DNA of 64,000 nucleotides, from assembly GCA_031402435.1 (NCBI GenBank), contig JANNSJ010000015.1:132288-196287 (forward strand). The letters run 5' to 3'. This document shows, one piece after another, positions 94 through 10,782 of this stretch. Position 1 is the first letter of the stretch, and every line of letters starts with the position of its first letter. This DNA comes from Bacteroidota bacterium (GTDB lineage Bacteria; Bacteroidota; Ignavibacteria; UBA10030; UBA6906). The translations under genes were made by a program, and so were the position numbers. The notes below the pieces were generated by a model. That model was not told the origin of the DNA, did no database searches, and saw only the letters and a program-made list of their open reading frames with translations.

Positions 94-1902
94 ATGCGAC
101 TAAAAACCTACTGCGTTCTCATAGTTCTGTTAATTGCATTCTCATGCAAAAAGGACGACCCAACTCAACCCGTTGTTCCAACCTTTCCACAAGTCCACAT
201 CGTTAGCCCAATCAACAATAGTTCAATTGGTGGGGGTCTTGTACCCGTACTTGTTGAAGCGACTGATGATAATGGCGTGGCAAAAGTTGAGGTGTATGTT
301 GACAGCCAGCTCGACACTACGTTGGCTGTCCCGCCATACAGATATCTTTGGGACACAGGAATCTACCCTGACAGCAGCCGCCATGCGATGTTTGCCAAGG
401 CATATGACACCGACAACAATGTAACGGGGTCTACTGTTGTAGTGACCACGGTGTACACTCTGCGTCCTTCGAACCTTCAAGTGACGACAGCAACTGATAC
501 GTCCGTGACTCTGCAATGGAGCGACAATTCGAGAGTCGAAACAGGATACGAGATAGAACAAAGTGGGAACAATGGACCCTTTACGAGGGTGAAACAGGTT
601 GCGGCGAACACGATTACTGCTTTCGTTGCTGATACCTTTGATGTTGGAACCACATACAGATTCCGATTACGAGCGGTGAAAGATTCAACTGTAAGTGGCT
701 ATTCGAACGAGCCATCTTTCACATTACAGTTCCTGGCCCCAAGCAACTTAAATGTCACCTCACTTAGCGGCGGTGAAGTGAGATTGTCGTGGGTAGATAA
801 TTCAGCATTCGAAACTCGATTCCTTGTTGACCGTGCAGTGAATGGCGGCCAATACGTAACAATAGCCGCTCTGCCTGCCGATGCAGTCACTTTCAACAAT
901 ACTTCTCTCGATACGAACAATACACTTTCATATAGAATTAAGGCAGAATCAAGACATAACTCTTCATACAGCAACACAATCTCAATAAGATACTTTCCCT
1001 ACTATGACATCAGAACGCTGATTGGGGGCACCTACTCTGTCAATTCGGTTGCCTTTAGTCCAGACGGTAACACGATTGCAAGTGGGAGCTACGACCAAAA
1101 CATCAAGCTCTGGCGGGTAAGCGACGGTACTCTCCTCAGAACTCTGGCAGGACATACCAGCAGTGTCAATTCGGTTACCTTTAGCCCAAACGGTAACACG
1201 GTTGCAAGCGGAAGCTTTGATAACAGTATCAAGATCTGGCAGGTAAGCGACGGCACTTTGATCAGGACACTGACAGGGCACACTAGCAGTGTCAGATCCG
1301 TTACCTTCAGCCCAGACGGTGCCATGCTTGCAAGTGGGAGCTACGACCACAGCATCAAGCTCTGGCGGGTAAGCGACGGGACTCTACTTAGGACGCTGAT
1401 TGGAGATGCCAACGGTGTCTATTCGGTTGCCTTTAGCCCAGACGGTAACACGGTTGCAAGTGGTGGCGATGATAGCAGCATCAAGTTCTGGCGGGTAAGC
1501 GACGGTGCTCTGCTCAGAACACTGACAGGACACACCGCCCTTGTCAATTCGGTTGCCTTTAGTCCAGATGGGAACACGATTGCAAGTGGAAGCGCTGATA
1601 ACAGGATCAAGTTATGGCGGGTAGGCGACGGCGCTCTGCTCAGAACACTGCCAGGGGGGGCCGCCTACACTGTCAATTCGGTTGCCTTTGGTCCGGTCGG
1701 TAACATATTTGCAAGTGGTAGCGTTGACACCAGACTCTGGTGGCTGAGCGACGGGACTCTGCTCAGGACACAGCCAGGTGGTACCTACGGCGTCAGTTCG
1801 GTTGCTTTTAGTCCAGACGGTTATACGTTTGCAAGTGGGGGTGTCCAGAACGGCATCAAACTCTGGCAATCAGCAGGCAGCATCTGGCAGGTTGTACCAT
1901 GA
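94..1902 (+). CDS. Lipoprotein-signal protein with Ig-like/FN3 domains followed by ~7 canonical WD40 repeats
   Basis: 602-aa ORF. N-terminal signal with lipobox-like AFSC. Repeated units GHTSSVNSVTFSPDGNTVASGSYDxSIKLWRVSDGTLLRTL typical of WD40 (GH...WD-like spacing, 42 aa). Upstream FN3-like beta-rich segments (LQWSDNS, LSWVDNS). Confidence 0.8.
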   Translation: MRLKTYCVLIVLLIAFSCKKDDPTQPVVPTFPQVHIVSPINNSSIGGGLVPVLVEATDDNGVAKVEVYVDSQLDTTLAVPPYRYLWDTGIYPDSSRHAMFAKAYDTDNNVTGSTVVVTTVYTLRPSNLQVTTATDTSVTLQWSDNSRVETGYEIEQSGNNGPFTRVKQVAANTITAFVADTFDVGTTYRFRLRAVKDSTVSGYSNEPSFTLQFLAPSNLNVTSLSGGEVRLSWVDNSAFETRFLVDRAVNGGQYVTIAALPADAVTFNNTSLDTNNTLSYRIKAESRHNSSYSNTISIRYFPYYDIRTLIGGTYSVNSVAFSPDGNTIASGSYDQNIKLWRVSDGTLLRTLAGHTSSVNSVTFSPNGNTVASGSFDNSIKIWQVSDGTLIRTLTGHTSSVRSVTFSPDGAMLASGSYDHSIKLWRVSDGTLLRTLIGDANGVYSVAFSPDGNTVASGGDDSSIKFWRVSDGALLRTLTGHTALVNSVAFSPDGNTIASGSADNRIKLWRVGDGALLRTLPGGAAYTVNSVAFGPVGNIFASGSVDTRLWWLSDGTLLRTQPGGTYGVSSVAFSPDGYTFASGGVQNGIKLWQSAGSIWQVVP

Positions 1903-2817: not shown

Positions 2818-2890
2818 GGGGCTGTAGCTCAGCTGGGAGAGCGCGTGAATGGCATTCACGAGGCCAGGGGTTCGATCCCCCTCAGCTCCA
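2818..2890 (+). tRNA. tRNA-Ala (anticodon GGC)
   Basis: Cloverleaf GGGGCTG-TA-GCTC..GAGC-G-CGTGA-ATGGCAT-TCACG-..-TTCGATC-..-CAGCTCC-A. G3:U70 wobble pair, the alanine identity element. CCA not encoded (followed by CAA). Confidence 0.85.
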
Positions 2891-3073
2891 CAAAAGGGAA
2901 CCAAGAGGTTCCCTTTTCTATTCATCCGCCGCACGCCGAGGTCAAAACACGACGCTCCGTGGAATGCTTTGCTCCTCACTCAAATCACCCAATCACCCCT
3001 GTTTGGAAATCAGCATGGAAATTGGTTAATTCATGCTGAAACATTTGCTTTGTCCCATTTCCTCTCGTTCTCC

Positions 3074-4399
3074 ATGGATCCGTTCTGGATCGAAGCAATC
3101 GGCGTACTCTTTCTCATCATCCTTATCGGGCTATTCTCGGCGTGCGAGGTGGCGGTCGTCTCGACGCGCAAGAGCCGCATGAAGGAACTGGCAGACGAGG
3201 GGAACCGCAGCGCCGCCATTGTCCTCCAATTCCAGAACAACCCCGAGCAGTTCCTTGCAACAATCCACGTGGGGGTGGTGTCATTCATGACTCTTGCCTC
3301 TGGGCTGGCCGGCATCATGGGGTTCCAGCACCTTGCACCGGCGCTGCAAGCGAGTGAGACACTATGGATCAGTGAGGGGAGCGGGTGGATCTCGCTGGTG
3401 ATCATGGTTGTCGGCATTGGCTCTCTGGTTGTGGTGCTTGGAGAGCTGGTTCCCAAGTCACTTGCGCTCCGCTTTGCCGAACCCGTGGCTCTTCGCGTTG
3501 CCTCGCCGCTCTCGCTGTTTGCCGCCGTCTTCCGTTATCCCGTCAAACTGCTCACGATGGCGAGCAACCTGTTCCTGATGCCGTTCAAGGACAGGACGTC
3601 GTTCATGGAATCGAGGATCTCCGAAGAGGAACTCAAGCTGATTCTCGTGGAGGGGACGAAGACCGGCGTCATCGACAAGACCGAGCATGAACTGATCGAG
3701 AGCATCTTCGAGTTCACCGATACGACGGCGAAGGAAGTCATGATTCCGCGTCCGGATGTTGTTGCCATCAACATCGATACGCCGCGGGATAAGGTGATCA
3801 AGATCGTGCTCGAAGAGGGCTACTCACGCATGCCGGTCTACAAGGATACGATCGATAATATTCTCGGTGTGGTGTACACCAAGGACCTGCTCGGACTGCT
3901 CGAATACCGCGATCTTATTATTATTCAGGATGTGATTCGTCCGGCGTACTTCATTCCCGAGACCAAGAAGATCAGCAAGCTCATGCGTGAGTTGCAGCAG
4001 AAGAAGCTGCACATGGCCATCATCATTGATGAGTTCGGCGGGACGGAAGGCATTGTGACCATGGAGGACATCCTCGAAGAGATCGTGGGGGAAATCCACG
4101 ATGAGTACGATGAAGTGCTGAAGGACGTGGAGTCCTCCGCTGATGGTTCGTTCCTTGTGAACGCCAGGATTTCCGTGAGCGACTTCAATGAGCGCTTTCA
4201 CACCTCCATCCCCGAAGCGGATGAGTACGACACACTCAGTGGTTACCTCAACAAGCTCTCCGGCCGCATCCCCGACCTCAACGAAGAACTCAAGACCGAG
4301 TCCCTTTCGTTCACCATTGTCAAGAAGAGCCAGCGCCGCATCCGGCTGGTGAAGGTGAAGAAGCTGACGGCGGTGGCGGTTCCGACGAGGCAGGGGTAG
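3074..4399 (+). CDS. CorC/HlyC (TlyC/CNNM) family membrane protein: DUF21 transmembrane domain + CBS pair + CorC_HlyC transporter-associated domain
   Basis: True start almost certainly MDPFWIEAIGVLFLII at 3074. The upstream part of ORF 2849..4399 reads through the tRNA-Ala. TM-rich N-terminus, CBS-like segments (VMIPRPDVVAI..., MAIIIDEFGGTEGIVTMEDILEEIVGEI), C-terminal FTIVKKSQRRIRLVKVKKL typical of CorC_HlyC. Confidence 0.85.
   Translation: MDPFWIEAIGVLFLIILIGLFSACEVAVVSTRKSRMKELADEGNRSAAIVLQFQNNPEQFLATIHVGVVSFMTLASGLAGIMGFQHLAPALQASETLWISEGSGWISLVIMVVGIGSLVVVLGELVPKSLALRFAEPVALRVASPLSLFAAVFRYPVKLLTMASNLFLMPFKDRTSFMESRISEEELKLILVEGTKTGVIDKTEHELIESIFEFTDTTAKEVMIPRPDVVAINIDTPRDKVIKIVLEEGYSRMPVYKDTIDNILGVVYTKDLLGLLEYRDLIIIQDVIRPAYFIPETKKISKLMRELQQKKLHMAIIIDEFGGTEGIVTMEDILEEIVGEIHDEYDEVLKDVESSADGSFLVNARISVSDFNERFHTSIPEADEYDTLSGYLNKLSGRIPDLNEELKTESLSFTIVKKSQRRIRLVKVKKLTAVAVPTRQG
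4306..4393 (+). repeat. Direct repeat copy 1 (native 3' end of the corC-family gene); further copies at 5180..5270 and 6282..6346
   Basis: ttcgttcaccattgtcaagaagagccagcgccgcatccggctggtgaaggtgaagaagctgacggcggtggcggttccgacgaggcag recurs ~90% identical at 5180-5270 and, 5'-truncated, at 6282-6346. Confidence 0.9.
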
Positions 4400-4513
4400 G
4401 TTGGAACAACAACGACATTCATGGAGTGAACACAGTAGTTATGCGGCATTGGTTTGCAAAGTAAATGAAAATCGGGGGAGTGAAAAAGGCGAGAATCTAT
4501 CGGAGGATGAAGG

Positions 4514-4798
4514 TCACTCGTAATGCGTCCACATTCGAATGACTTTAACGATTCGCTGCTCAGGAAGGATCTGGTAGACGAGTCGATGCTGAATGTTTAT
4601 CCGTCGAGAGTATGCACCAGCCAAATCTCCGACTAGCTTTTCATATGGAGGGGGTGTCTGAAAAGGACTGAGTTCGAGAACTTTGAGGAGCCGTTCAGCT
4701 TTTGGTTTTAGTCCTGTTGAAGCTAATTTCTTAGAGTCTTTCTGAGCTTGTTTTGTGAAAACAACAGTCCATCTCACCAAGGAAGCTCCGGTGAACAT
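4514..4798 (-). CDS. yoeB: YoeB/Txe-family type II toxin (RelE/ParE superfamily mRNA interferase)
   Basis: C-terminal half ...AYSRRINIQHRLVYQILPEQRIVKVIRMWTHYE aligns with E. coli YoeB (...WSRRITEEHRLVYAV...CRYHY). True start may be an internal GTG near 4777, abutting the antitoxin stop. Confidence 0.75.
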   Translation of the reverse strand: MFTGASLVRWTVVFTKQAQKDSKKLASTGLKPKAERLLKVLELSPFQTPPPYEKLVGDLAGAYSRRINIQHRLVYQILPEQRIVKVIRMWTHYE

Positions 4799-5010
4799 TT
4801 CTCAACAGGTGTTTTCAGTCCTCGTCGAATCGACTCGCGCATCTTGGGGATCGAAAGCAAATACAAGGTCTCTTGAATTGCACGCCAATCATCAAGTGAG
4901 AGGAGAACCCCTTTGTTTTTCTTCCCGATGATATGGACAGGCTCATGAGACTTTTCAGACTCGTCAAGAAGTCTCGAAAGGTTGGCTCGTGCTGCTGATA
5001 CTGTTTTCAT
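4774..5010 (-). CDS. yefM: YefM/Phd-family antitoxin
   Basis: MKTVSAARANLSRLLDESEKSHEPVHIIGKKNKGVLLSLDDWRAIQETLYLL matches the YefM pattern (SxSEARxNL....PVxIT..G..AVLLS.EEY..L.ET.YLL). Immediately upstream of and overlapping yoeB. ORF-track start 5040 is probably an N-terminal extension. Confidence 0.7.
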   Translation of the reverse strand: MKTVSAARANLSRLLDESEKSHEPVHIIGKKNKGVLLSLDDWRAIQETLYLLSIPKMRESIRRGLKTPVEKCSPELPW

Positions 5011-5314
5011 TAAATTCACCTTATTTGTTTCTATCTTCAAGATAGCTGTTTCTCAGAAGACTGTCAACGAGTTTCAATATCACGACGAAGGCAAACCAAC
5101 GCCGTATGACAACTGCAACAGCGACACTCACATTGTTTGGCAAGGCTATGTTGAACCGCAGTTTGCTCTAAGAATTGAGTTCGTTCACCATTGTCAAGAA
5201 GAGCCAGCGCCGCATCCGGTTGGCGAAGGTGAAGAAGCTGACGGCGGTTGCGGTGCCCACGAGGCAGACATAACCATTGAGACTAATCCTGGAGGGTGAG
5301 ACATAAAAGCAATT

Positions 5315-6283
5315 GTGTATGAAAGATATGGGCCGCCCGATGTTCTTCAATTGAAGGAGGTCGAAAAGCCCACGCCCAAAGACAATGAAGTCCTGATAAA
5401 AATACACGCGACAACGGTAACATCAGGGGACTGGAGGGTACGAAGTCTCAATGTGCCTGCCGGGTTCAGACTAATGTCGCGTCTGTTTTTTGGAGTCTCA
5501 AAACCAAAGCAGCCCATCCTCGGAACGGAACTCGCCGGTGAAATTGAGTCGGTCGGCAAGGACGTAAGCAAATTCAAAGTTGGTGACAAGGTGTTTGCAT
5601 TCAACGATGTGGGCATGGGTTGTTATGCGGAGTATAAATGCATGCCGGAAGCCGGAGCGGTGGCACTCAAGCCGCCCAATCTCACCTACGATGAAGCTGC
5701 CGCATTGTCGTTTGGTGGAACAACGGCGTTGAGTTTCTTCAAAAGAGGAAAACTTCAGAGCGGGGAAAAGGTGCTCGTCAATGGCGCTTCAGGCGGAGTA
5801 GGCACCGCTGCGGTACAGCTTGCCAAACACTTCGGGGCAGAGGTGACCGGAGTGTGCAGTACAACGAACATGGAATTGGTAAAATCGCTGGGTGCCAGTC
5901 ATGTCATTGACTATACCAAAGAGGACTTCACGCAGAATGGTGAAACGTATGGCGTCATTGTCGACACTGCCGGCACGGCGCCGTTCTCACGTTGCAAAGA
6001 TTCGCTAAAGCAAGGCGGGCGCCTTCTTCAAGTATTAGGCGGACTGCCGGACCTGCTTCAGGTTCCTTGGGTGTCGCTCACGAGCAGTAAGAAAGTGATC
6101 GCCGGGCCGGCACCGGGGCGTGCAGAGGATTTGCTTTTCCTTGCGAAGCTGGTTGAGGCGGGAGAATTCAAACCGGTCATTGACCGGTGCTATCCATTCG
6201 AGCAGATCGCTGAGGCTCACCGCTACGTTGATACCGGACGCAAGAGAGGAAATGTTATCATAACTCTGGGGCGTGATGGCTAG
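5315..6283 (+). CDS. Medium-chain dehydrogenase/reductase (zinc-binding ADH / NADPH:quinone oxidoreductase family)
   Basis: 322 aa. GroES-like N-domain (VLIKIHATTVTSGDWRV) and Rossmann motif NGASGGVGTAAVQLAK. Stop codon abuts repeat copy 3. Confidence 0.8.
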   Translation: MYERYGPPDVLQLKEVEKPTPKDNEVLIKIHATTVTSGDWRVRSLNVPAGFRLMSRLFFGVSKPKQPILGTELAGEIESVGKDVSKFKVGDKVFAFNDVGMGCYAEYKCMPEAGAVALKPPNLTYDEAAALSFGGTTALSFFKRGKLQSGEKVLVNGASGGVGTAAVQLAKHFGAEVTGVCSTTNMELVKSLGASHVIDYTKEDFTQNGETYGVIVDTAGTAPFSRCKDSLKQGGRLLQVLGGLPDLLQVPWVSLTSSKKVIAGPAPGRAEDLLFLAKLVEAGEFKPVIDRCYPFEQIAEAHRYVDTGRKRGNVIITLGRDG

Positions 6284-6430
6284 CGCCGCATCTGGCTGGT
6301 GAAGGTGAAGAAGCTGACGGTAGTGGCGGTGCCGACGAGGCAGACAAGTTGAAACAACGACATAATGTCGGCTATCCACCTATGATGGGCTGAACAACGA
6401 CACTCATATCGTATCAGAGGGATCTGTGAT

Positions 6431-7420
6431 ATGGCAACCGAAATCAAGACTTGGCAGATAGTAAACGGTAAGCTCACGGTGGTGAACTCTTCTCTGCCTG
6501 AGAACAATCGCAAAGAGAGGGAAGACCTTGAACGATGGATAAAGAGCAATCCCGAGATTCTCGGGGAAGACATCGCCGTATTTGGTGAGCAAATTCAAAC
6601 CAAATCTGGTCCACTGGACTTCCTCGGAATTGATAACAATGGCAATCTTGTCATCGTTGAACTGAAGCGTGACCACCTTCCGAGAGAGGTTCTCGCACAA
6701 GCCATAGACTACGCATCTGATGTTTCAACGTGGGAGATTGATAAGCTTGGTGAAATCTGTCAAGCATTCACTGGTCAGAACCTTGAAGACTTCTTTGCCC
6801 AAAAGTTTCCAGATACGTCTATCGAGGAATTGGTAATCAATCAAGCCCAACGACTTCTCCTTGTCGGGTTCTCAATTGAAGAATCTCTGAACCGAATGAT
6901 CGAGTGGCTTTCATCCAAATACAGCATTGGCATCAACGCTATCATTCTCAAGTATGTCAAGACATCGAACGGGGACGAGCTTCTTTCCCGCACAGTTATC
7001 ATCCCCGAAGAAGTTGAGCGAGAGAAGACAAACAAGAAGAAGTTTGTAATCGCAAAGTCAAACGAGCCTGGGAACTATGATGAAGCAACGGTGAAGGAGA
7101 AGCTGACTCAATACTTATCCCTGGATATGTATTCCGCCAAACGAATTAGAGACTACGTTCTTCCGATTCTACTCAAGAACGAGGTAACGACGAGAGAGGA
7201 AATGCGGAAAGAGTTTATTAAGATGGGCGGCGCAACCGAAAGTCAGGCGGGGTATTTTCTGGCTCTCATTTCCAGTCAACTTGGTTTCAAGTGGAACGAT
7301 TTTCTCAGGCAAGTAATCAAATATGAATTCCCGAACAACGAGTGGGAGAAAGACAACTTCACTATCCGAACAGAGTACCGTGACCTTGTCAAACAAGTCT
7401 TGAAGAATCTTGGAAAATAG
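6431..7420 (+). CDS. PD-(D/E)xK nuclease-superfamily protein (NucS/DUF91/Shedu-like restriction-endonuclease fold) with uncharacterised helical C-terminal domain
   Basis: N-terminal region DLERWIKSNPEILGEDIAVFGEQIQTKSGPLDFLGIDNNGNLVIVELKRD carries the D...(D/E)xK arrangement (D-x-n-ELK) typical of NucS-like/restriction-endonuclease-like domains. Confidence 0.6.
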   Translation: MATEIKTWQIVNGKLTVVNSSLPENNRKEREDLERWIKSNPEILGEDIAVFGEQIQTKSGPLDFLGIDNNGNLVIVELKRDHLPREVLAQAIDYASDVSTWEIDKLGEICQAFTGQNLEDFFAQKFPDTSIEELVINQAQRLLLVGFSIEESLNRMIEWLSSKYSIGINAIILKYVKTSNGDELLSRTVIIPEEVEREKTNKKKFVIAKSNEPGNYDEATVKEKLTQYLSLDMYSAKRIRDYVLPILLKNEVTTREEMRKEFIKMGGATESQAGYFLALISSQLGFKWNDFLRQVIKYEFPNNEWEKDNFTIRTEYRDLVKQVLKNLGK

Positions 7421-7606
7421 ACCGTGCCCAACAGCGACAAACTGCGTCGCCACTCAATTTGCAAGGCTCGGCCAAAACATGTTGGAGCAAGCTCAGAAAG
7501 AGTTTGCTTCACACAGCACTCCATTGTAAAGAGCGCGGAGTGCGGCTGCCGTAGTTTGCGGCACGCATCCTGCTCAACTGCTTTTCATAATAGAAAGATT
7601 GCTCGA

Positions 7607-8521
7607 ATGCCGTTGTACAAACTAGCACACAAGCAGCTTGAACTCATCAAAGAGAATTCATTCAGGCTGGAGAAGGAAGTGCAAGAGATTGTCGAGGCAA
7701 ATATGGACTCTCTTTTTGGGTCAAAACTTGTCAGGCATGAGTTTTCCCTTAGTGGATTGAGAATCGATACGCTTGGATACGACAAGGATGCTCAATCGTT
7801 TGTCATCATCGAGTACAAGAGGGGATCGAACTATTCGGTTGTGGACCAGGGAATGGCTTACCTCGGATTGATGCTCAACAACAAAGCTGAGTTCATTTTG
7901 GAATACAACGAGAGATGTAATGCTTCTCTCAAACGGGATGACGTTGACTGGTCTCAATCGAAGGTGATCTTCATCTCGCCCTCATTCACAAGCTTTCAGC
8001 TTGAGGCAATCAACTTCAAGGATTTGCCGATTGAGTTGTGGGAAGTAAAACGTTACTCAAACAACACTGTCAGGTTCGACCAACACAAGCCAACGGCTAC
8101 GGTTGCTTCCATTAAGACTGTGTCAAAGAAGAGCGAGGTAGTCGAAGCAATTAACAGGGAGGTAAAGACCTACACCGAAGAAGCTCATTTGAAAGTAGCT
8201 CAGCCGACCATTGCTGAAATGTACACTAGATACAAGGAGCTTGTGTTAGCTATTAGCCCTGAGTTGTCTGTCAAACCGATGAAATGGTACATTGCCTTCC
8301 GTGCGAAGACGAATATTACCGATGTTGTTGTTCTCAAGAAGTCACTTAAGATTTTCATCAACTTGCCGAAAGGTAAATTGGAGGACCCAAAAAAGCTCGT
8401 CCGCGATGTTTCAAAAGTCGGGCACTGGGGCAACGGCGACTATCAGATTCAGATCAGTACGGACGATGAATTAGAGTATATCATCTCCCTAGTCCGGCAG
8501 GCGTACAAACTGAACGAATAG
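7607..8521 (+). CDS. Second PD-(D/E)xK nuclease-like protein (paralog-like N-domain) with C-terminal domain containing a GHWGNGDY motif (DUF5655-like?)
   Basis: Likely start MPLYKLAHK (ATG 7607); ORF-track start 7424 is an extension. EKEVQEIVEANMDSLFGSKLVRHEFSLSGLRIDTLGYDKDAQSFVIIEYKRG repeats the nuclease-core pattern of the upstream gene. Confidence 0.55.
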   Translation: MPLYKLAHKQLELIKENSFRLEKEVQEIVEANMDSLFGSKLVRHEFSLSGLRIDTLGYDKDAQSFVIIEYKRGSNYSVVDQGMAYLGLMLNNKAEFILEYNERCNASLKRDDVDWSQSKVIFISPSFTSFQLEAINFKDLPIELWEVKRYSNNTVRFDQHKPTATVASIKTVSKKSEVVEAINREVKTYTEEAHLKVAQPTIAEMYTRYKELVLAISPELSVKPMKWYIAFRAKTNITDVVVLKKSLKIFINLPKGKLEDPKKLVRDVSKVGHWGNGDYQIQISTDDELEYIISLVRQAYKLNE

Positions 8522-8610
8522 CTGTGACCAAGCGGCGCTCTTTCATTTGATAAGGCTCTATTGGTAAATGTCCAACGCCCCAATAAAGTAGAGTCGATCT
8601 TGACGCCACA

Positions 8611-8667
8611 ACCCCGCTTTAGTCAAAGACACCTGGGAAATCGGCGAGGCGTACGATTCATTCATCG
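8611..8667 (+). repeat. Partial duplicate of the 5' end of the downstream SAM-methyltransferase gene (second copy 9985..10042)
   Basis: agtcaaagacacctgggaaatcggcgaggcgtacgattcattcatcg vs agtcatggacacatgggaaatcggagaggcgtacgattcattcatcg (4 mismatches in 47 nt). Encodes DTWEIGEAYDSFI in both. Confidence 0.85.
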
Positions 8668-9956: not shown

Positions 9957-9975
9957 CAGCAAAGAGTTCACAATC

Positions 9976-10782
9976 TTGAAACCAGACCCTCACTCAGTCA
10001 TGGACACATGGGAAATCGGAGAGGCGTACGATTCATTCATCGGACGCTGGAGCTTGCCGGTAGCGAGGGAATTTGTGCAATGGCTTGCAGCTTCTCCTAA
10101 GAGCAAATGGCTTGATGTCGGCTGCGGTACCGGAGCGCTGAGTCGAACCATCGTTGAGCTGGTTGATCCTGCAGAAGTACATGGAATCGATTCGGCACAA
10201 GGGTTCATCTCGTTTGCACAGGAGCGAACCAGTGATCGTCGGGTAACCTTTGCCGTGGGCGATGCGGAATCCCTTCAGGTGCAAGCGGGCGTGTACAACG
10301 CAGCAGTCTCGGCTCTTATGCTCAACTTTGTTTCTCGTCCTGATAAGATCGTCTCAGAGATGCAGCGTGTGGTAAAGCCCGGTGGGGTTGTAGCCTTCTA
10401 TGTTTGGGACTACGCGGAACGAATGCAGTTGCTGCGTTACTTTTGGGATGTGGCGGTGTCTCTCAATCCGGCAGTCTCCGCTTTGGATGAGGGAAAGAGA
10501 TTTCCGCTTTGCAATCCCGACCGGCTCAACGATCTCTTCGTTGCTCAGGGTCTGCACAACATCGAGGTGAGAGCGATTGAGGTGCCTACTCAGTTCTCTG
10601 ACTTTGATGATTACTGGAAACCATTTCTTGCCGGTCAGGGACCTGCGCCGGGTTACGTTGCTTCTCTTACTCCACAAAAGCAGGTAGCAATAAGAGAACG
10701 CCTTCGCACCACTCTGCCTATTGCGACTGACGGAACGATCAGCCTGGTGGCGCGTGCATGGGCTGTGAAAGGCAACGCGTAA
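9976..10782 (+). CDS. Class I SAM-dependent methyltransferase (Methyltransf_11-like)
   Basis: LDVGCGTGALSRTIVEL (motif I), VKPGGVVAFYVWDY (post-II). Confidence 0.8.
   Translation: MKPDPHSVMDTWEIGEAYDSFIGRWSLPVAREFVQWLAASPKSKWLDVGCGTGALSRTIVELVDPAEVHGIDSAQGFISFAQERTSDRRVTFAVGDAESLQVQAGVYNAAVSALMLNFVSRPDKIVSEMQRVVKPGGVVAFYVWDYAERMQLLRYFWDVAVSLNPAVSALDEGKRFPLCNPDRLNDLFVAQGLHNIEVRAIEVPTQFSDFDDYWKPFLAGQGPAPGYVASLTPQKQVAIRERLRTTLPIATDGTISLVARAWAVKGNA

What the first reader, a model, noticed from the sequence alone, without database searches (positions are those of the whole stretch)
6431..8521. Tandem pair of PD-(D/E)xK (NucS/DUF91/Shedu-like) nuclease-fold proteins as cassette cargo: candidate two-gene defence module
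Both proteins carry an N-terminal restriction-endonuclease-like core:
- Gene 1: DFLGIDNNGNLVIVELKRD.
- Gene 2: LRIDTLGYDKDAQSFVIIEYKRG.
Each core is preceded by the ExxLxxxNPxLL-type helix seen in NucS/DUF4263-class nucleases, and each has a different uncharacterised C-terminal domain. Gene 2 ends with a ...GHWGNGDY... block, which I associate tentatively with DUF5655.

They sit in a variable region next to a TA module, bounded by the corC-end and MTase-start repeats, which is the genomic context typical of anti-phage systems. Two divergent nuclease-fold paralogs in tandem do not match any defence system I can name with confidence.
Basis: partly seen in the sequence, partly recalled or inferred. 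Interest (0 to 1): 0.65.

Follow-up and report, generated by a model that had tools for sequence, protein, structure and literature searches.

The report
Two unrelated stand-alone nuclease genes, adjacent
Two neighbouring genes each encode a restriction-enzyme-like DNA nuclease from an already catalogued but largely untested family of candidate anti-phage genes, and they are independent single-gene units that landed side by side, not a new two-gene system.

Summary
Two same-strand ORFs each carry an intact NucS-type PD-(D/E)xK core, and gene 2 ends in DUF5655. Gene 2 starts at 7607, not 7424.

- **Gene 2** (7607-8521) is a full-length member of PADLOC candidate family PDC-S18.
- **Gene 1** (6431-7420) shares its first ~200 residues with PDC-S11. 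A winged-helix domain replaces that family's usual DUF4268 C-terminus.
- **The pair is not conserved.** A sensitive profile search found a partner next to gene-1 relatives in 1 of 80 loci, and next to gene-2 relatives in 0 of 80.
- **Close relatives sit elsewhere.** Relatives at 95% and 89% identity lie alone among unrelated genes. DNA similarity stops at the ORF ends.
- **Both genes look imported.** Each has 45% GC against 51-56% in the flanks.
- **The surroundings are not a defence island.** The region is variable, but apart from the two nucleases only a toxin-antitoxin pair is present.

Most likely each protein acts alone as a DNA endonuclease, with its C-terminal domain selecting foreign or modified DNA. 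That mechanism is inferred, not shown.

Unexplained extras are ORF-bracketing inverted repeats around gene-2 relatives and the toxin-antitoxin module, and a recurring junction motif.

The parts
6431..7420 (+). Gene 1, 329 aa. NucS-C-like PD-(D/E)xK nuclease module (aa 1 to about 200), a basic low-confidence linker (aa 191-215), and a C-terminal winged-helix-like domain (aa about 215-329).
6617..6667 (+). Gene 1 catalytic core: D63 (6617-6619), E77 (6659-6661), K79 (6665-6667). The QxxxY motif (Q90/Y94) lies at 6698-6712.
   Evidence: Invariant columns in alignment A1. Aligned to the NucS core.
7073..7417 (+). Gene 1 C-terminal winged-helix-like domain. It replaces the DUF4268 domain of canonical PDC-S11 proteins.
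7421..7606 (.). Non-coding spacer of 186 nt between the two genes. It has host-like GC (0.516), one copy of the junction motif AACAGCGACA (7430-7439) and stable hairpins (about 7484-7543).
   Evidence: Homolog starts. GC. Motif. DNA fold -23.4 kcal/mol, z -2.2.
7607..8521 (+). Gene 2, 304 aa. NucS-C-like PD-(D/E)xK nuclease module (aa 1 to about 160) plus a C-terminal DUF5655 domain (aa 194-303). Full-length PDC-S18 member.
   Evidence: PADLOC PDLC04945, E 1.7e-131, positions 1-301 of 302. Pfam DUF5655 at 39 bits. More than 7300 homologs. Foldseek EndoMS/NucS E about 8e-5 on a low-confidence model.
7766..7819 (+). Gene 2 catalytic core: D54 (7766-7768), E69 (7811-7813), K71 (7817-7819).
   Evidence: Invariant columns in alignment A2.
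8186..8515 (+). DUF5655 domain of gene 2, including the invariant H/WGNGDY loop.
   Evidence: Pfam PF18899, E 8.4e-10 and E 1.4e-10 on the isolated domain. Invariant G272/W274-Y279.
8521..8536 (+). Terminator-like hairpin with a T-rich tail directly after gene 2.
   Evidence: Consensus scan only.
6256..6343 (+). Third copy of the corC 3' end. The homologous part runs from about 6275 to 6343. It forms the left boundary of the segment holding genes 1 and 2. The other copies are at 4306-4393 (the real corC end) and 5180-5267.
   Evidence: Direct-repeat family D4. Alignment A3.
8597..8667 (+). Copy of the 5' start of the methyltransferase gene. The real start is at 9973-10042. This copy forms the right boundary of the segment holding genes 1 and 2.
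   Evidence: Direct repeat D5. blastn 83% over 71 nt.

Best explanation
These are two independent, horizontally acquired single-gene nucleases that sit next to each other in a variable chromosomal region.

**Shared design.** Each protein has an N-terminal minimal PD-(D/E)xK (NucS-C-type) Mg2+-dependent DNA endonuclease module. A family-specific C-terminal domain follows it.

**Gene 1.** Its nuclease module is the PDC-S11 type. In place of DUF4268 it carries a winged-helix DNA-binding domain.

**Gene 2.** It is a standard PDC-S18 protein: the nuclease module plus DUF5655.

**Inferred mechanism.** Each enzyme works alone. The C-terminal domain binds or senses a feature of foreign DNA, such as a base modification, and so licenses cleavage by the nuclease module. 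This resembles a type IV (modification-dependent) restriction enzyme, which needs no cognate methyltransferase. The tandem position reflects accretion of imported genes at one insertion-prone site, not functional coupling.

**Shown:** the domain architecture, the intact catalytic residues, the lack of a conserved partner, the patchy cross-phylum distribution and the low GC.

**Inferred:** nuclease activity, the substrate, and the anti-phage role.
For: **Architecture and catalytic residues:**

**Independence of the two genes:**
- A partner was found in 1 of 80 gene-1 loci and 0 of 80 gene-2 loci, using a superfamily-wide jackhmmer profile.
- There is no recurrent neighbour at all: 366 neighbouring ORFs fall into 342 clusters, and 309 into 283.
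- A 95%-identical gene-1 homolog and an 89%-identical gene-2 homolog each sit alone elsewhere.
- DNA similarity is confined to 6429-7412 and 7586-8538.
- The 186-nt spacer has host-like GC and carries hairpins.

**Horizontal acquisition:**
- GC is 0.449 and 0.448, against 0.51-0.56 in the flanks.
- Homologs at 50-70% identity span Bacteroidota, Chloroflexota, Bacillota, Planctomycetota and archaea.

**Defence association:**
- Both families are PADLOC candidates.
- PADLOC candidates (PDCs) were found by a guilt-by-embedding approach and remain mostly unvalidated (PMC12988326).
- The most recurrent gene-2 neighbours are type I R-M subunits: HsdM in 9 of 88 loci, HsdR in 4, HsdS in 4.
- On A. baumannii plasmids the homolog is embedded as hsdM-hsdS-DUF5655-hsdR.
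- Gene-1 neighbours include type III R-M, Mrr, a DUF1156 protein beside a SNF2/PLD helicase, two small adjacent ORFs I read by eye as a HigB/HigA-like toxin-antitoxin pair (not profile-tested), and integrases.
- Both families are almost absent from phage genomes: 1 and 4 of 50,697 records.

**Modular recognition domain:**
- 89 full-length relatives share the gene-1 N-module, but their C-termini fall into 27 BLAST clusters.
- A DUF4268-bearing nuclease, MdgA, was shown experimentally to be a modification-dependent anti-phage nuclease. Its activity is lost in the E77A mutant (PMC12366544).
- E77 is also the invariant catalytic glutamate of gene 1 and of the canonical PDC-S11 representative P0370.
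Against: - No experiment bears on either family itself. PDC-S11 and PDC-S18 are candidates only.
- I could not obtain the MdgA sequence, so its membership in PDC-S11 is a lead and not a result. That paper says its nucleases 'lacked homology to known defenses'.
- The window's own neighbourhood is not a defence island.
- The gene 2 structural model is poor (pLDDT 60.6), so the DUF5655 fold and role remain unknown.
- A winged helix could serve autoregulation or sequence-specific targeting rather than reading DNA modifications.
- Direct adjacency of a gene-1-type gene and a PDC-S18-type gene recurs once, in a distant phylum (L052). Random placement would not predict that.
Confidence: 0.6

Rival explanations
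1. One reading: the two nucleases form an obligate two-gene defence system, for example a heteromeric nuclease or a sensor-effector pair.
For: The genes share a strand and lie adjacent, with no predicted intrinsic terminator between them. The innermost pair of boundary fragments (corC-end copy 3 and the methyltransferase-start copy) brackets both genes together. One further tandem occurs in a Bacillota MAG, where a PDC-S18 (PDLC04944-type) gene is followed by a gene-1-type gene (L052).
Against: Co-occurrence is 1 of 80 and 0 of 80. In L052 the order is reversed and the PDC-S18 subfamily differs. The closest relatives of each gene occur alone. DNA similarity stops at each ORF. PADLOC lists both as single-gene candidates. 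The spacer is 186 nt, has host-like GC and carries a junction motif.
Confidence: 0.06
2. These are selfish mobile nuclease genes. On this view the nucleases mainly promote their own spread or retention, by homing-like insertion or as cargo of small cassettes bounded by inverted repeats. Any host benefit would be secondary.
For: Similarity to close relatives in unrelated contexts is precise to the ORF. Inverted repeats of 15-19 nt bracket the gene-2 relatives at a constant 941-947 nt in at least five contigs, and a related 25-nt inverted repeat brackets the window's toxin-antitoxin module. The junction motif AACARCGACA occurs five times at cassette boundaries. Duplicated fragments of the flanking genes sit at the boundaries. 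Conservation across phyla is very high.
Against: No target-site duplications are visible. No transposase or integrase was found nearby, although that was only a weak tblastn test. The inverted repeat around the window's own gene 2 has decayed. Gene-1 relatives lack such repeats. The arms show no covariation beyond conservation. Selfishness and defence are not mutually exclusive, as restriction-modification genes show.
Confidence: 0.15
3. These are housekeeping NucS/EndoMS-type mismatch or branched-DNA repair nucleases.
For: NCBI and JGI annotate some homologs as 'endonuclease NucS' or 'DUF91'. NucS is the top structural hit.
Against: Only about 65 residues of the nuclease core match. The NucS equivalog scores are 43.8 and 15.7 bits, against cut-offs of 216 and 252. 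There is no NucS N-terminal domain. The distribution is patchy, the neighbourhoods vary and the GC is low.
Confidence: 0.02

Closest known systems
PADLOC PDC-S11 (single-gene candidate: NucS-like nuclease plus DUF4268), possibly the same class as MdgA of Cell Host Microbe 2025
   Same: Gene 1 shares the first ~200 residues, with up to 61% identity to the canonical representative P0370 and identical numbering of D63/E77/K79. Both are single-gene, patchily distributed and about 330-360 aa long.
   Different: Gene 1 lacks DUF4268. Its last ~115 residues form a winged-helix-like domain with no detectable similarity to DUF4268. The PADLOC profiles cover only 197 of 358 positions.
PADLOC PDC-S18 (single-gene candidate: NucS-like nuclease plus DUF5655)
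   Same: Gene 2 matches the profile end to end (E 1.7e-131) and has the same length and the same domains.
   Different: Nothing of note. In the window it is solitary, whereas a sizeable minority of relatives are embedded in type I R-M operons.
NucS/EndoMS (archaeal and actinobacterial mismatch endonuclease)
   Same: The minimal RecB-like PD-(D/E)xK catalytic domain with D...ExK and QxxxY. It is the best structural match.
   Different: The proteins have no NucS N-terminal DNA-binding domain and score far below the family threshold. They carry different C-terminal domains and have a mobile, non-housekeeping distribution.
Shedu (SduA, DUF4263)
   Different: Neither gene matches SduA_C/DUF4263. 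The domain order is reversed: here the nuclease is N-terminal and the variable domain C-terminal.
Type IV restriction enzymes of the Mrr and AspBHI kind
   Different: There is no sequence-family membership, the domain order differs, and dependence on DNA modification is untested here.

Membership tests
PD-(D/E)xK nuclease superfamily (NucS_C-type core) | Conserved D...(D/E)xK catalytic residues on the core beta-strands | tested here: met
   D63/E77/K79 (gene 1) and D54/E69/K71 (gene 2) are invariant in 24-sequence alignments. They align to the NucS core.
PD-(D/E)xK nuclease superfamily (NucS_C-type core) | Restriction-endonuclease-like fold | tested here: met
NucS/EndoMS | Full-length match including the N-terminal DNA-binding domain (family score threshold) | tested here: not met
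   NCBIfam NF003270 scores 43.8 bits against a cut-off of 216. NF002876 scores 17.9 and 15.7 bits against 252. Pfam hits only NucS_C.
NucS/EndoMS | C-terminal sliding-clamp (PCNA or beta-clamp) binding motif | not tested
   No tool covered this. The C-termini (…VLKNLGK and …AYKLNE) show no obvious clamp-binding peptide by eye.
Shedu (SduA) | DUF4263/SduA_C profile match | tested here: not met
   Neither gene hits PF14082 at E <= 1. Only fold-level resemblance was found.
PADLOC PDC-S11 | Profile match to the N-terminal nuclease module | tested here: met
   Gene 1 versus PDLC04916: E 4e-46, aa 1-204, profile positions 1-197 of 358.
PADLOC PDC-S11 | C-terminal DUF4268 domain, giving full-length profile coverage | tested here: not met
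   Pfam finds no DUF4268 in gene 1. Canonical representatives have it. hhalign of the gene 1 C-terminus against DUF4268 gives probability 0.5%.
PADLOC PDC-S18 | Full-length profile match | tested here: met
   Gene 2 versus PDLC04945: E 1.7e-131, positions 1-301 of 302.
Pfam DUF5655 | Score above the gathering threshold | tested here: met
   39.1 bits against 24, gene 2 aa 194-303.
Multi-gene defence system (the proposed pair) | Conserved co-occurrence of the two components across genomes | tested here: not met
   1 of 80 gene-1 loci (74 with at least 1.2 kb of flank on one side) and 0 of 80 gene-2 loci (63 with such flank), by superfamily jackhmmer profile.
Integron gene cassette | attC-like folded recombination site at the 3' end of the cassette | tested here: not met
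   Single-strand DNA folds of the junction sequences have z-scores near 0. Only the gene1-gene2 spacer folds well (z -2.2), and it does so with local hairpins that are not attC-like.
Integron gene cassette | Integron integrase nearby | tested here: inconclusive
   tblastn with one tyrosine integrase found nothing in the window. That test is weak.
Type IV (modification-dependent) restriction enzyme | Cleavage that depends on DNA modification | not testable with these tools
   This is inferred from the architecture, from the absence of a DNA methyltransferase partner, and by analogy to MdgA (PMC12366544).

The most novel reading that the evidence does not exclude
In this FCB-group lineage, ORF-sized cassettes may be moved or inverted by an undescribed mechanism. 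The cassettes seen are a PDC-S18 nuclease gene and a YoeB/Phd toxin-antitoxin module, and perhaps gene 1. The sites involved would be inverted repeats of about 18-25 nt (GTTATGYGCCRCTTGCCC-like) together with a junction element: AACARCGACA followed by CATTTGnnAAGG. This would explain three observations:
- The close relatives share only the ORF plus about 20-50 nt of flank.
- Fragments of corC and of the methyltransferase gene are duplicated at the boundaries.
- The junction motif recurs after stop codons.

The nucleases themselves might take part in the process.
Probability: 0.12. Interest if true: 0.7.

Novelty: new member of a known kind. Interest (0 to 1): 0.28.

Why it matters
It corrects a tempting over-reading. 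Two nuclease genes in tandem are not a new two-gene system. They are two entries of an existing candidate catalogue.

The useful residue is modest.
- **A modular family.** Gene 1 represents a large subfamily (over 1800 proteins) in which the PDC-S11 nuclease module carries a winged helix instead of DUF4268. The same module pairs with at least 27 C-terminal types. This suggests a family of single-chain nucleases with swappable recognition domains that current defence finders cover only partly.
- **A possible read-across.** If MdgA really belongs to this class, one experimentally validated member could inform thousands of unannotated 'DUF91/NucS' proteins.
- **A possible mobility mechanism.** If the inverted repeats and junction motif are real recombination sites, they would point to an unknown way of moving single defence genes.

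Tried and rejected
- **Two-gene module.** Rejected on co-occurrence. My first tests (tblastn and a family HMM) were too insensitive to diverged PDC-S18 subfamilies and missed L052. The re-test with a superfamily jackhmmer profile still found only that one case.
- **NucS/EndoMS housekeeping repair.** Rejected on family thresholds and distribution.
- **Shedu membership.** Rejected because there is no DUF4263 hit.
- **Integron cassettes.** The junctions do not fold like attC sites. An RYYYAAC/GTTRRRY reading of the spacer did not hold up by eye.
- **RNA-level pairing of the ORF-bracketing inverted repeats.** No covariation beyond conservation.
- **Homology among the three C-terminal domains** (gene 1 winged helix, DUF5655, DUF4268). 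None by hhalign.
- **An 'empty site' in relatives.** L185 has corC followed directly by a methyltransferase, but that gene is not the window's ortholog.
- **Known RNAs.** Only tRNA-Ala at 2818-2891.
- **PHROGs.** No hits.
- **PDB sequence search for gene 2.** Nothing.
- **A bioRxiv preprint naming PDC-S11** ('H-NS silences antiviral immunity...'). It could not be opened.
- **The MdgA sequence.** Not held in the library.
Full report
**1. What is in the sequence**

The interval holds two same-strand ORFs.
- Gene 1 is 6431-7420 (329 aa).
- The second ORF can be read from a GTG at 7424. However, all 120 listed homologs are about 304 aa, and the 24 aligned ones begin MPLYK. DNA similarity to the nearest relatives starts at 7586.
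- Gene 2 is therefore 7607-8521 (304 aa), and 7421-7606 is a 186-nt spacer.

**2. Domain content**

Pfam results:
- Gene 1 matches NucS_C at 26 bits, over aa 32-81.
- Gene 2 matches DUF5655 at 39 bits, over aa 194-303, and NucS_C below threshold.

Catalytic residues in 24-sequence family alignments:
- Gene 1: D63, E77 and K79 plus Q90/Y94 are invariant.
- Gene 2: D54, E69 and K71 plus Q81/Y85 are invariant.

The gene 1 AF2 model has pLDDT 73.6 and shows three parts:
- a nuclease domain up to about aa 190;
- a basic, low-confidence linker;
- a helical C-terminal domain.

Structural matches for gene 1:

The gene 2 model is poor (pLDDT 60.6). Its N-terminal half still finds EndoMS/NucS (E about 8e-5).

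The two proteins resemble each other only over about 40 core columns (hhalign E 0.034). They belong to one superfamily but are not close paralogs.

**3. Known families**

PADLOC-DB profiles give the decisive assignment.
- Gene 2 is a full-length PDC-S18 (PDLC04945, E 1.7e-131, positions 1-301 of 302).
- Gene 1 hits PDC-S11 (PDLC04916, E 4e-46), but only over aa 1-204 and profile positions 1-197 of 358.

A search of 1.84 billion cluster representatives shows why. Many proteins of 340-360 aa share the first ~200 residues of gene 1 and then diverge.
- Canonical PDC-S11 representatives (P0370, P0390, P0403, P0472) carry DUF4268 at the C-terminus and cover the PDC-S11 profiles end to end.
- Among 89 full-length representatives with this N-module, the C-terminal regions fall into 27 BLAST clusters.
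- The gene 1 C-terminus, DUF4268 and DUF5655 show no mutual similarity by hhalign.

Gene 1 is thus a C-terminal domain-swap relative of PDC-S11. Its own subfamily has more than 1800 proteins, conserved over the full length.

PDCs are candidate defence genes that PADLOC found by a guilt-by-embedding approach. They remain mostly unvalidated (PMC12988326).

Neither gene is NucS. The equivalog scores are 43.8 and 15.7 bits against cut-offs of 216 and 252, and there is no NucS N-terminal domain.

**4. Is the pair a unit?**

I fetched 80 genome loci with a gene-1 relative and 80 metagenome loci with a gene-2 relative, each with up to 10 kb of flank.
- tblastn and family HMMs found no co-occurrence, apart from two contigs identical to the window.
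- Those tests proved too insensitive. A weak HMM hit in L052 turned out to be a full-length PDC-S18 of another subfamily (PDLC04944, E 1.5e-139), lying 90 nt upstream of a gene-1-type gene in a Bacillota MAG.
- I repeated the test with a jackhmmer profile that detects the whole nuclease superfamily. It recovers every gene-1 relative at about 1e-40.
- L052 remains the only case among the 80 gene-1 loci (74 have at least 1.2 kb of flank on one side). There is none among the 80 gene-2 loci (63 have such flank).

Other evidence points the same way.
- Neighbour ORFs show no recurrent partner: 366 ORFs fall into 342 clusters for gene 1, and 309 into 283 for gene 2.
- A 95%-identical gene-1 homolog lies between a Pyridox_ox_2 gene and a ParE toxin gene. 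An 89%-identical gene-2 homolog lies after nuoF. Each is without the other.
- DNA similarity to these relatives is confined to 6429-7412 and 7586-8538.
- The spacer has host-like GC (0.516) while both genes have 0.449 and 0.448. It folds into stable hairpins.

The pair is not a conserved module. One recurrence in reversed order, with a different PDC-S18 subfamily, fits clustering of defence genes better than coupling. I keep it as a caveat.

**5. Evidence on function**

- The most recurrent gene-2 neighbours are type I R-M subunits: HsdM in 9 of 88 loci, HsdR in 4, HsdS in 4. These were verified by Pfam.
- On A. baumannii plasmids the 46%-identical homolog sits inside the operon as hsdM-hsdS-DUF5655-hsdR.
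- Gene-1 neighbours include tyrosine integrases (5 loci), type III R-M (3), Mrr (3) and a DUF1156 protein beside a SNF2/PLD helicase (2). Two loci also carry a pair of small ORFs that I read by eye as a HigB/HigA-like toxin-antitoxin pair; that identity was not profile-tested.
- Both families span bacterial phyla, and gene 1 also reaches archaea, at 50-70% identity.
- Both are almost absent from 50,697 phage records: 1 and 4 hits.
- A functional-metagenomics study reports MdgA, a widespread nuclease with a DUF4268 domain. It protects E. coli from T4 and Mu but not from T4-GT7. It degrades glucosyl-hmC DNA in vitro, and the E77A mutant loses that activity (PMC12366544).
- E77 is exactly the invariant catalytic glutamate of gene 1 and of the DUF4268-bearing PDC-S11 representative P0370. 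I could not obtain the MdgA sequence, so this is a lead and not a test.

**6. The surroundings**

The window has three copies of the corC 3' end, at 4306-4393, 5180-5267 and about 6275-6343. It has two copies of the start of a small-molecule-type methyltransferase gene, at 8597-8667 and 9973-10042.
- The differences between copies are mostly synonymous. The extra copies therefore look like imports from orthologous genes of close relatives.
- The order is corC | YoeB/Phd toxin-antitoxin (minus strand) | corC-end | quinone oxidoreductase | corC-end | gene 1 | gene 2 | methyltransferase start | SnoaL protein | unknown ORF | methyltransferase.
- In relatives with 82-84% identical corC, the stretch downstream of corC holds quite different genes: miscellaneous accessory genes in L182 and polysaccharide synthesis genes in L185-187.

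It is a variable, insertion-prone region but not a defence island. Ten neighbours give no PADLOC hit beyond a generic methyltransferase domain.

**7. Unexplained features**

*A junction motif.*
- AACARCGACA occurs 7 times in the window against 0.32 expected.
- Five copies lie on the + strand at gene junctions, at 4408, 5117, 6353, 6393 and 7430. The last is 10 nt after the gene 1 stop codon.
- The other two copies are inside ORFs.

*Inverted repeats around gene-2 relatives.*
- The closest gene-2 relatives (77-89% identity) sit among unrelated genes, yet carry a 15-19-nt inverted repeat bracketing the ORF.
- In L097 the arms are GTTATGTGCCACTTGCCC and GGGCAAGCGGCACATAAC.
- The spacing between arms is constant at 941-947 nt, and complementarity is 72-94%.
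- The pattern is specific to these positions: 13 of 17 hits in 2.1 Mb of loci, against 3 hits in shuffled sequence.
- Pairing is in register (82%, against 29-44% when the arms are slid), but there is no covariation beyond conservation.

*Related features in the window.*
- A related 25-nt inverted repeat brackets the window's toxin-antitoxin module: 4433-4457 and 5091-5115, 84% complementary.
- Around the window's own gene 2 the arms have decayed.
- Gene-1 relatives show no such repeats.
- No target-site duplications, attC-like folds or recombinase genes were found.

I cannot say whether these are recombination sites, inversion sites, protein-binding sites or UTR elements.

**8. Verdict**

The best model is two independent single-chain nucleases of the PDC-S11-like and PDC-S18 kinds. 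Each would use its own C-terminal domain to pick its DNA target, in the manner of a type IV restriction enzyme. Architecture and independence are shown. Activity, target and anti-phage role are inferred.

Interest is low to moderate. The residual novelty lies in the modular C-terminal swapping of the PDC-S11 nuclease module and in the unexplained cassette-like boundaries.

Noticed in passing
window 4306-4393, 5180-5267, 6256-6343; 8597-8667, 9973-10042: The 3' end of corC is present three times and the 5' start of the methyltransferase gene twice. The differences between copies are mostly synonymous. The copies partition the corC-to-methyltransferase interval into segments: toxin-antitoxin, quinone oxidoreductase, the two nucleases, and SnoaL plus an unknown ORF. 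This looks like serial import of DNA that carried flank fragments from close relatives.
   Followed up: partly
window 4408, 5117, 6353, 6393, 7430 (+ strand): The motif AACARCGACA occurs five times at gene junctions, often followed by CAyTTGnnAAGG. The whole window has 7 exact matches against 0.32 expected; the other two lie inside ORFs. Variants sit 27-36 nt after the stop codon of gene-2 relatives in L097, L099, L100 and L103. Its function is unknown.
   Followed up: partly
L097 9959-9976/10921-10938; L098 1316-1330/2275-2289; L100 1015-1032/1980-1997; L103 934-952/1894-1912; L099 9959-9976/10920-10937: The closest PDC-S18 relatives are bracketed by a conserved 15-19-nt inverted repeat at constant spacing, although their neighbouring genes are unrelated. 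No target-site duplication is visible and there is no covariation beyond conservation. Around the window's own gene 2 the arms have decayed.
   Followed up: partly
window 4433-4457 and 5091-5115: A 25-nt inverted repeat (84% complementary) brackets the YoeB/Phd toxin-antitoxin module at 4514-5040 on the minus strand. Its sequence (GTTATGCGGCATTGG...) resembles the arms around the PDC-S18 relatives. A partial copy (GTAGTTTGCGGCA) lies at about 7550, upstream of gene 2.
   Followed up: partly
L052 163-1080 and 1170-2159 (Bacillota MAG contig JAKPZU010000228.1): This is the only other tandem found. A PDC-S18 gene of another subfamily (PDLC04944, E 1.5e-139) lies directly upstream of a gene-1-type gene, which is the reverse of the order in the window.
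   Followed up: partly
L188 (A. baumannii plasmid NZ_CP121626.1) 4185-10820: A 46%-identical gene-2 homolog is embedded in a type I R-M operon as hsdM-hsdS-DUF5655-hsdR, with gaps of 10 and 29 nt. The same protein occurs on many A. baumannii plasmids.
   Followed up: partly
proteins P0361-P0510: The ~200-aa nuclease module of gene 1 is combined with many different C-terminal domains: 27 BLAST clusters among 89 full-length representatives. DUF4268 is only one of them.
   Followed up: partly
window 2818-2891 and 2849-4399: A tRNA-Ala(GGC) gene lies just upstream of corC. The longest corC ORF (start 2849) overlaps it. Judging by homolog lengths (about 441-451 aa), the real corC start is probably 3074 (MDPFW...).
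   Followed up: partly
window 4514-5040, 6431-7420, 7607-8521: The toxin-antitoxin module and both nuclease genes have about 44-45% GC. The window mean is 50% and the flanking genes are 51-56%. The spacer between the two nuclease genes has host-like GC (51.6%).
   Followed up: yes
window 975-1867: Tandem 126-nt repeats correspond to WD40 repeats inside a large secreted protein (ORF 94-1902). This is an ordinary protein repeat.
   Followed up: no
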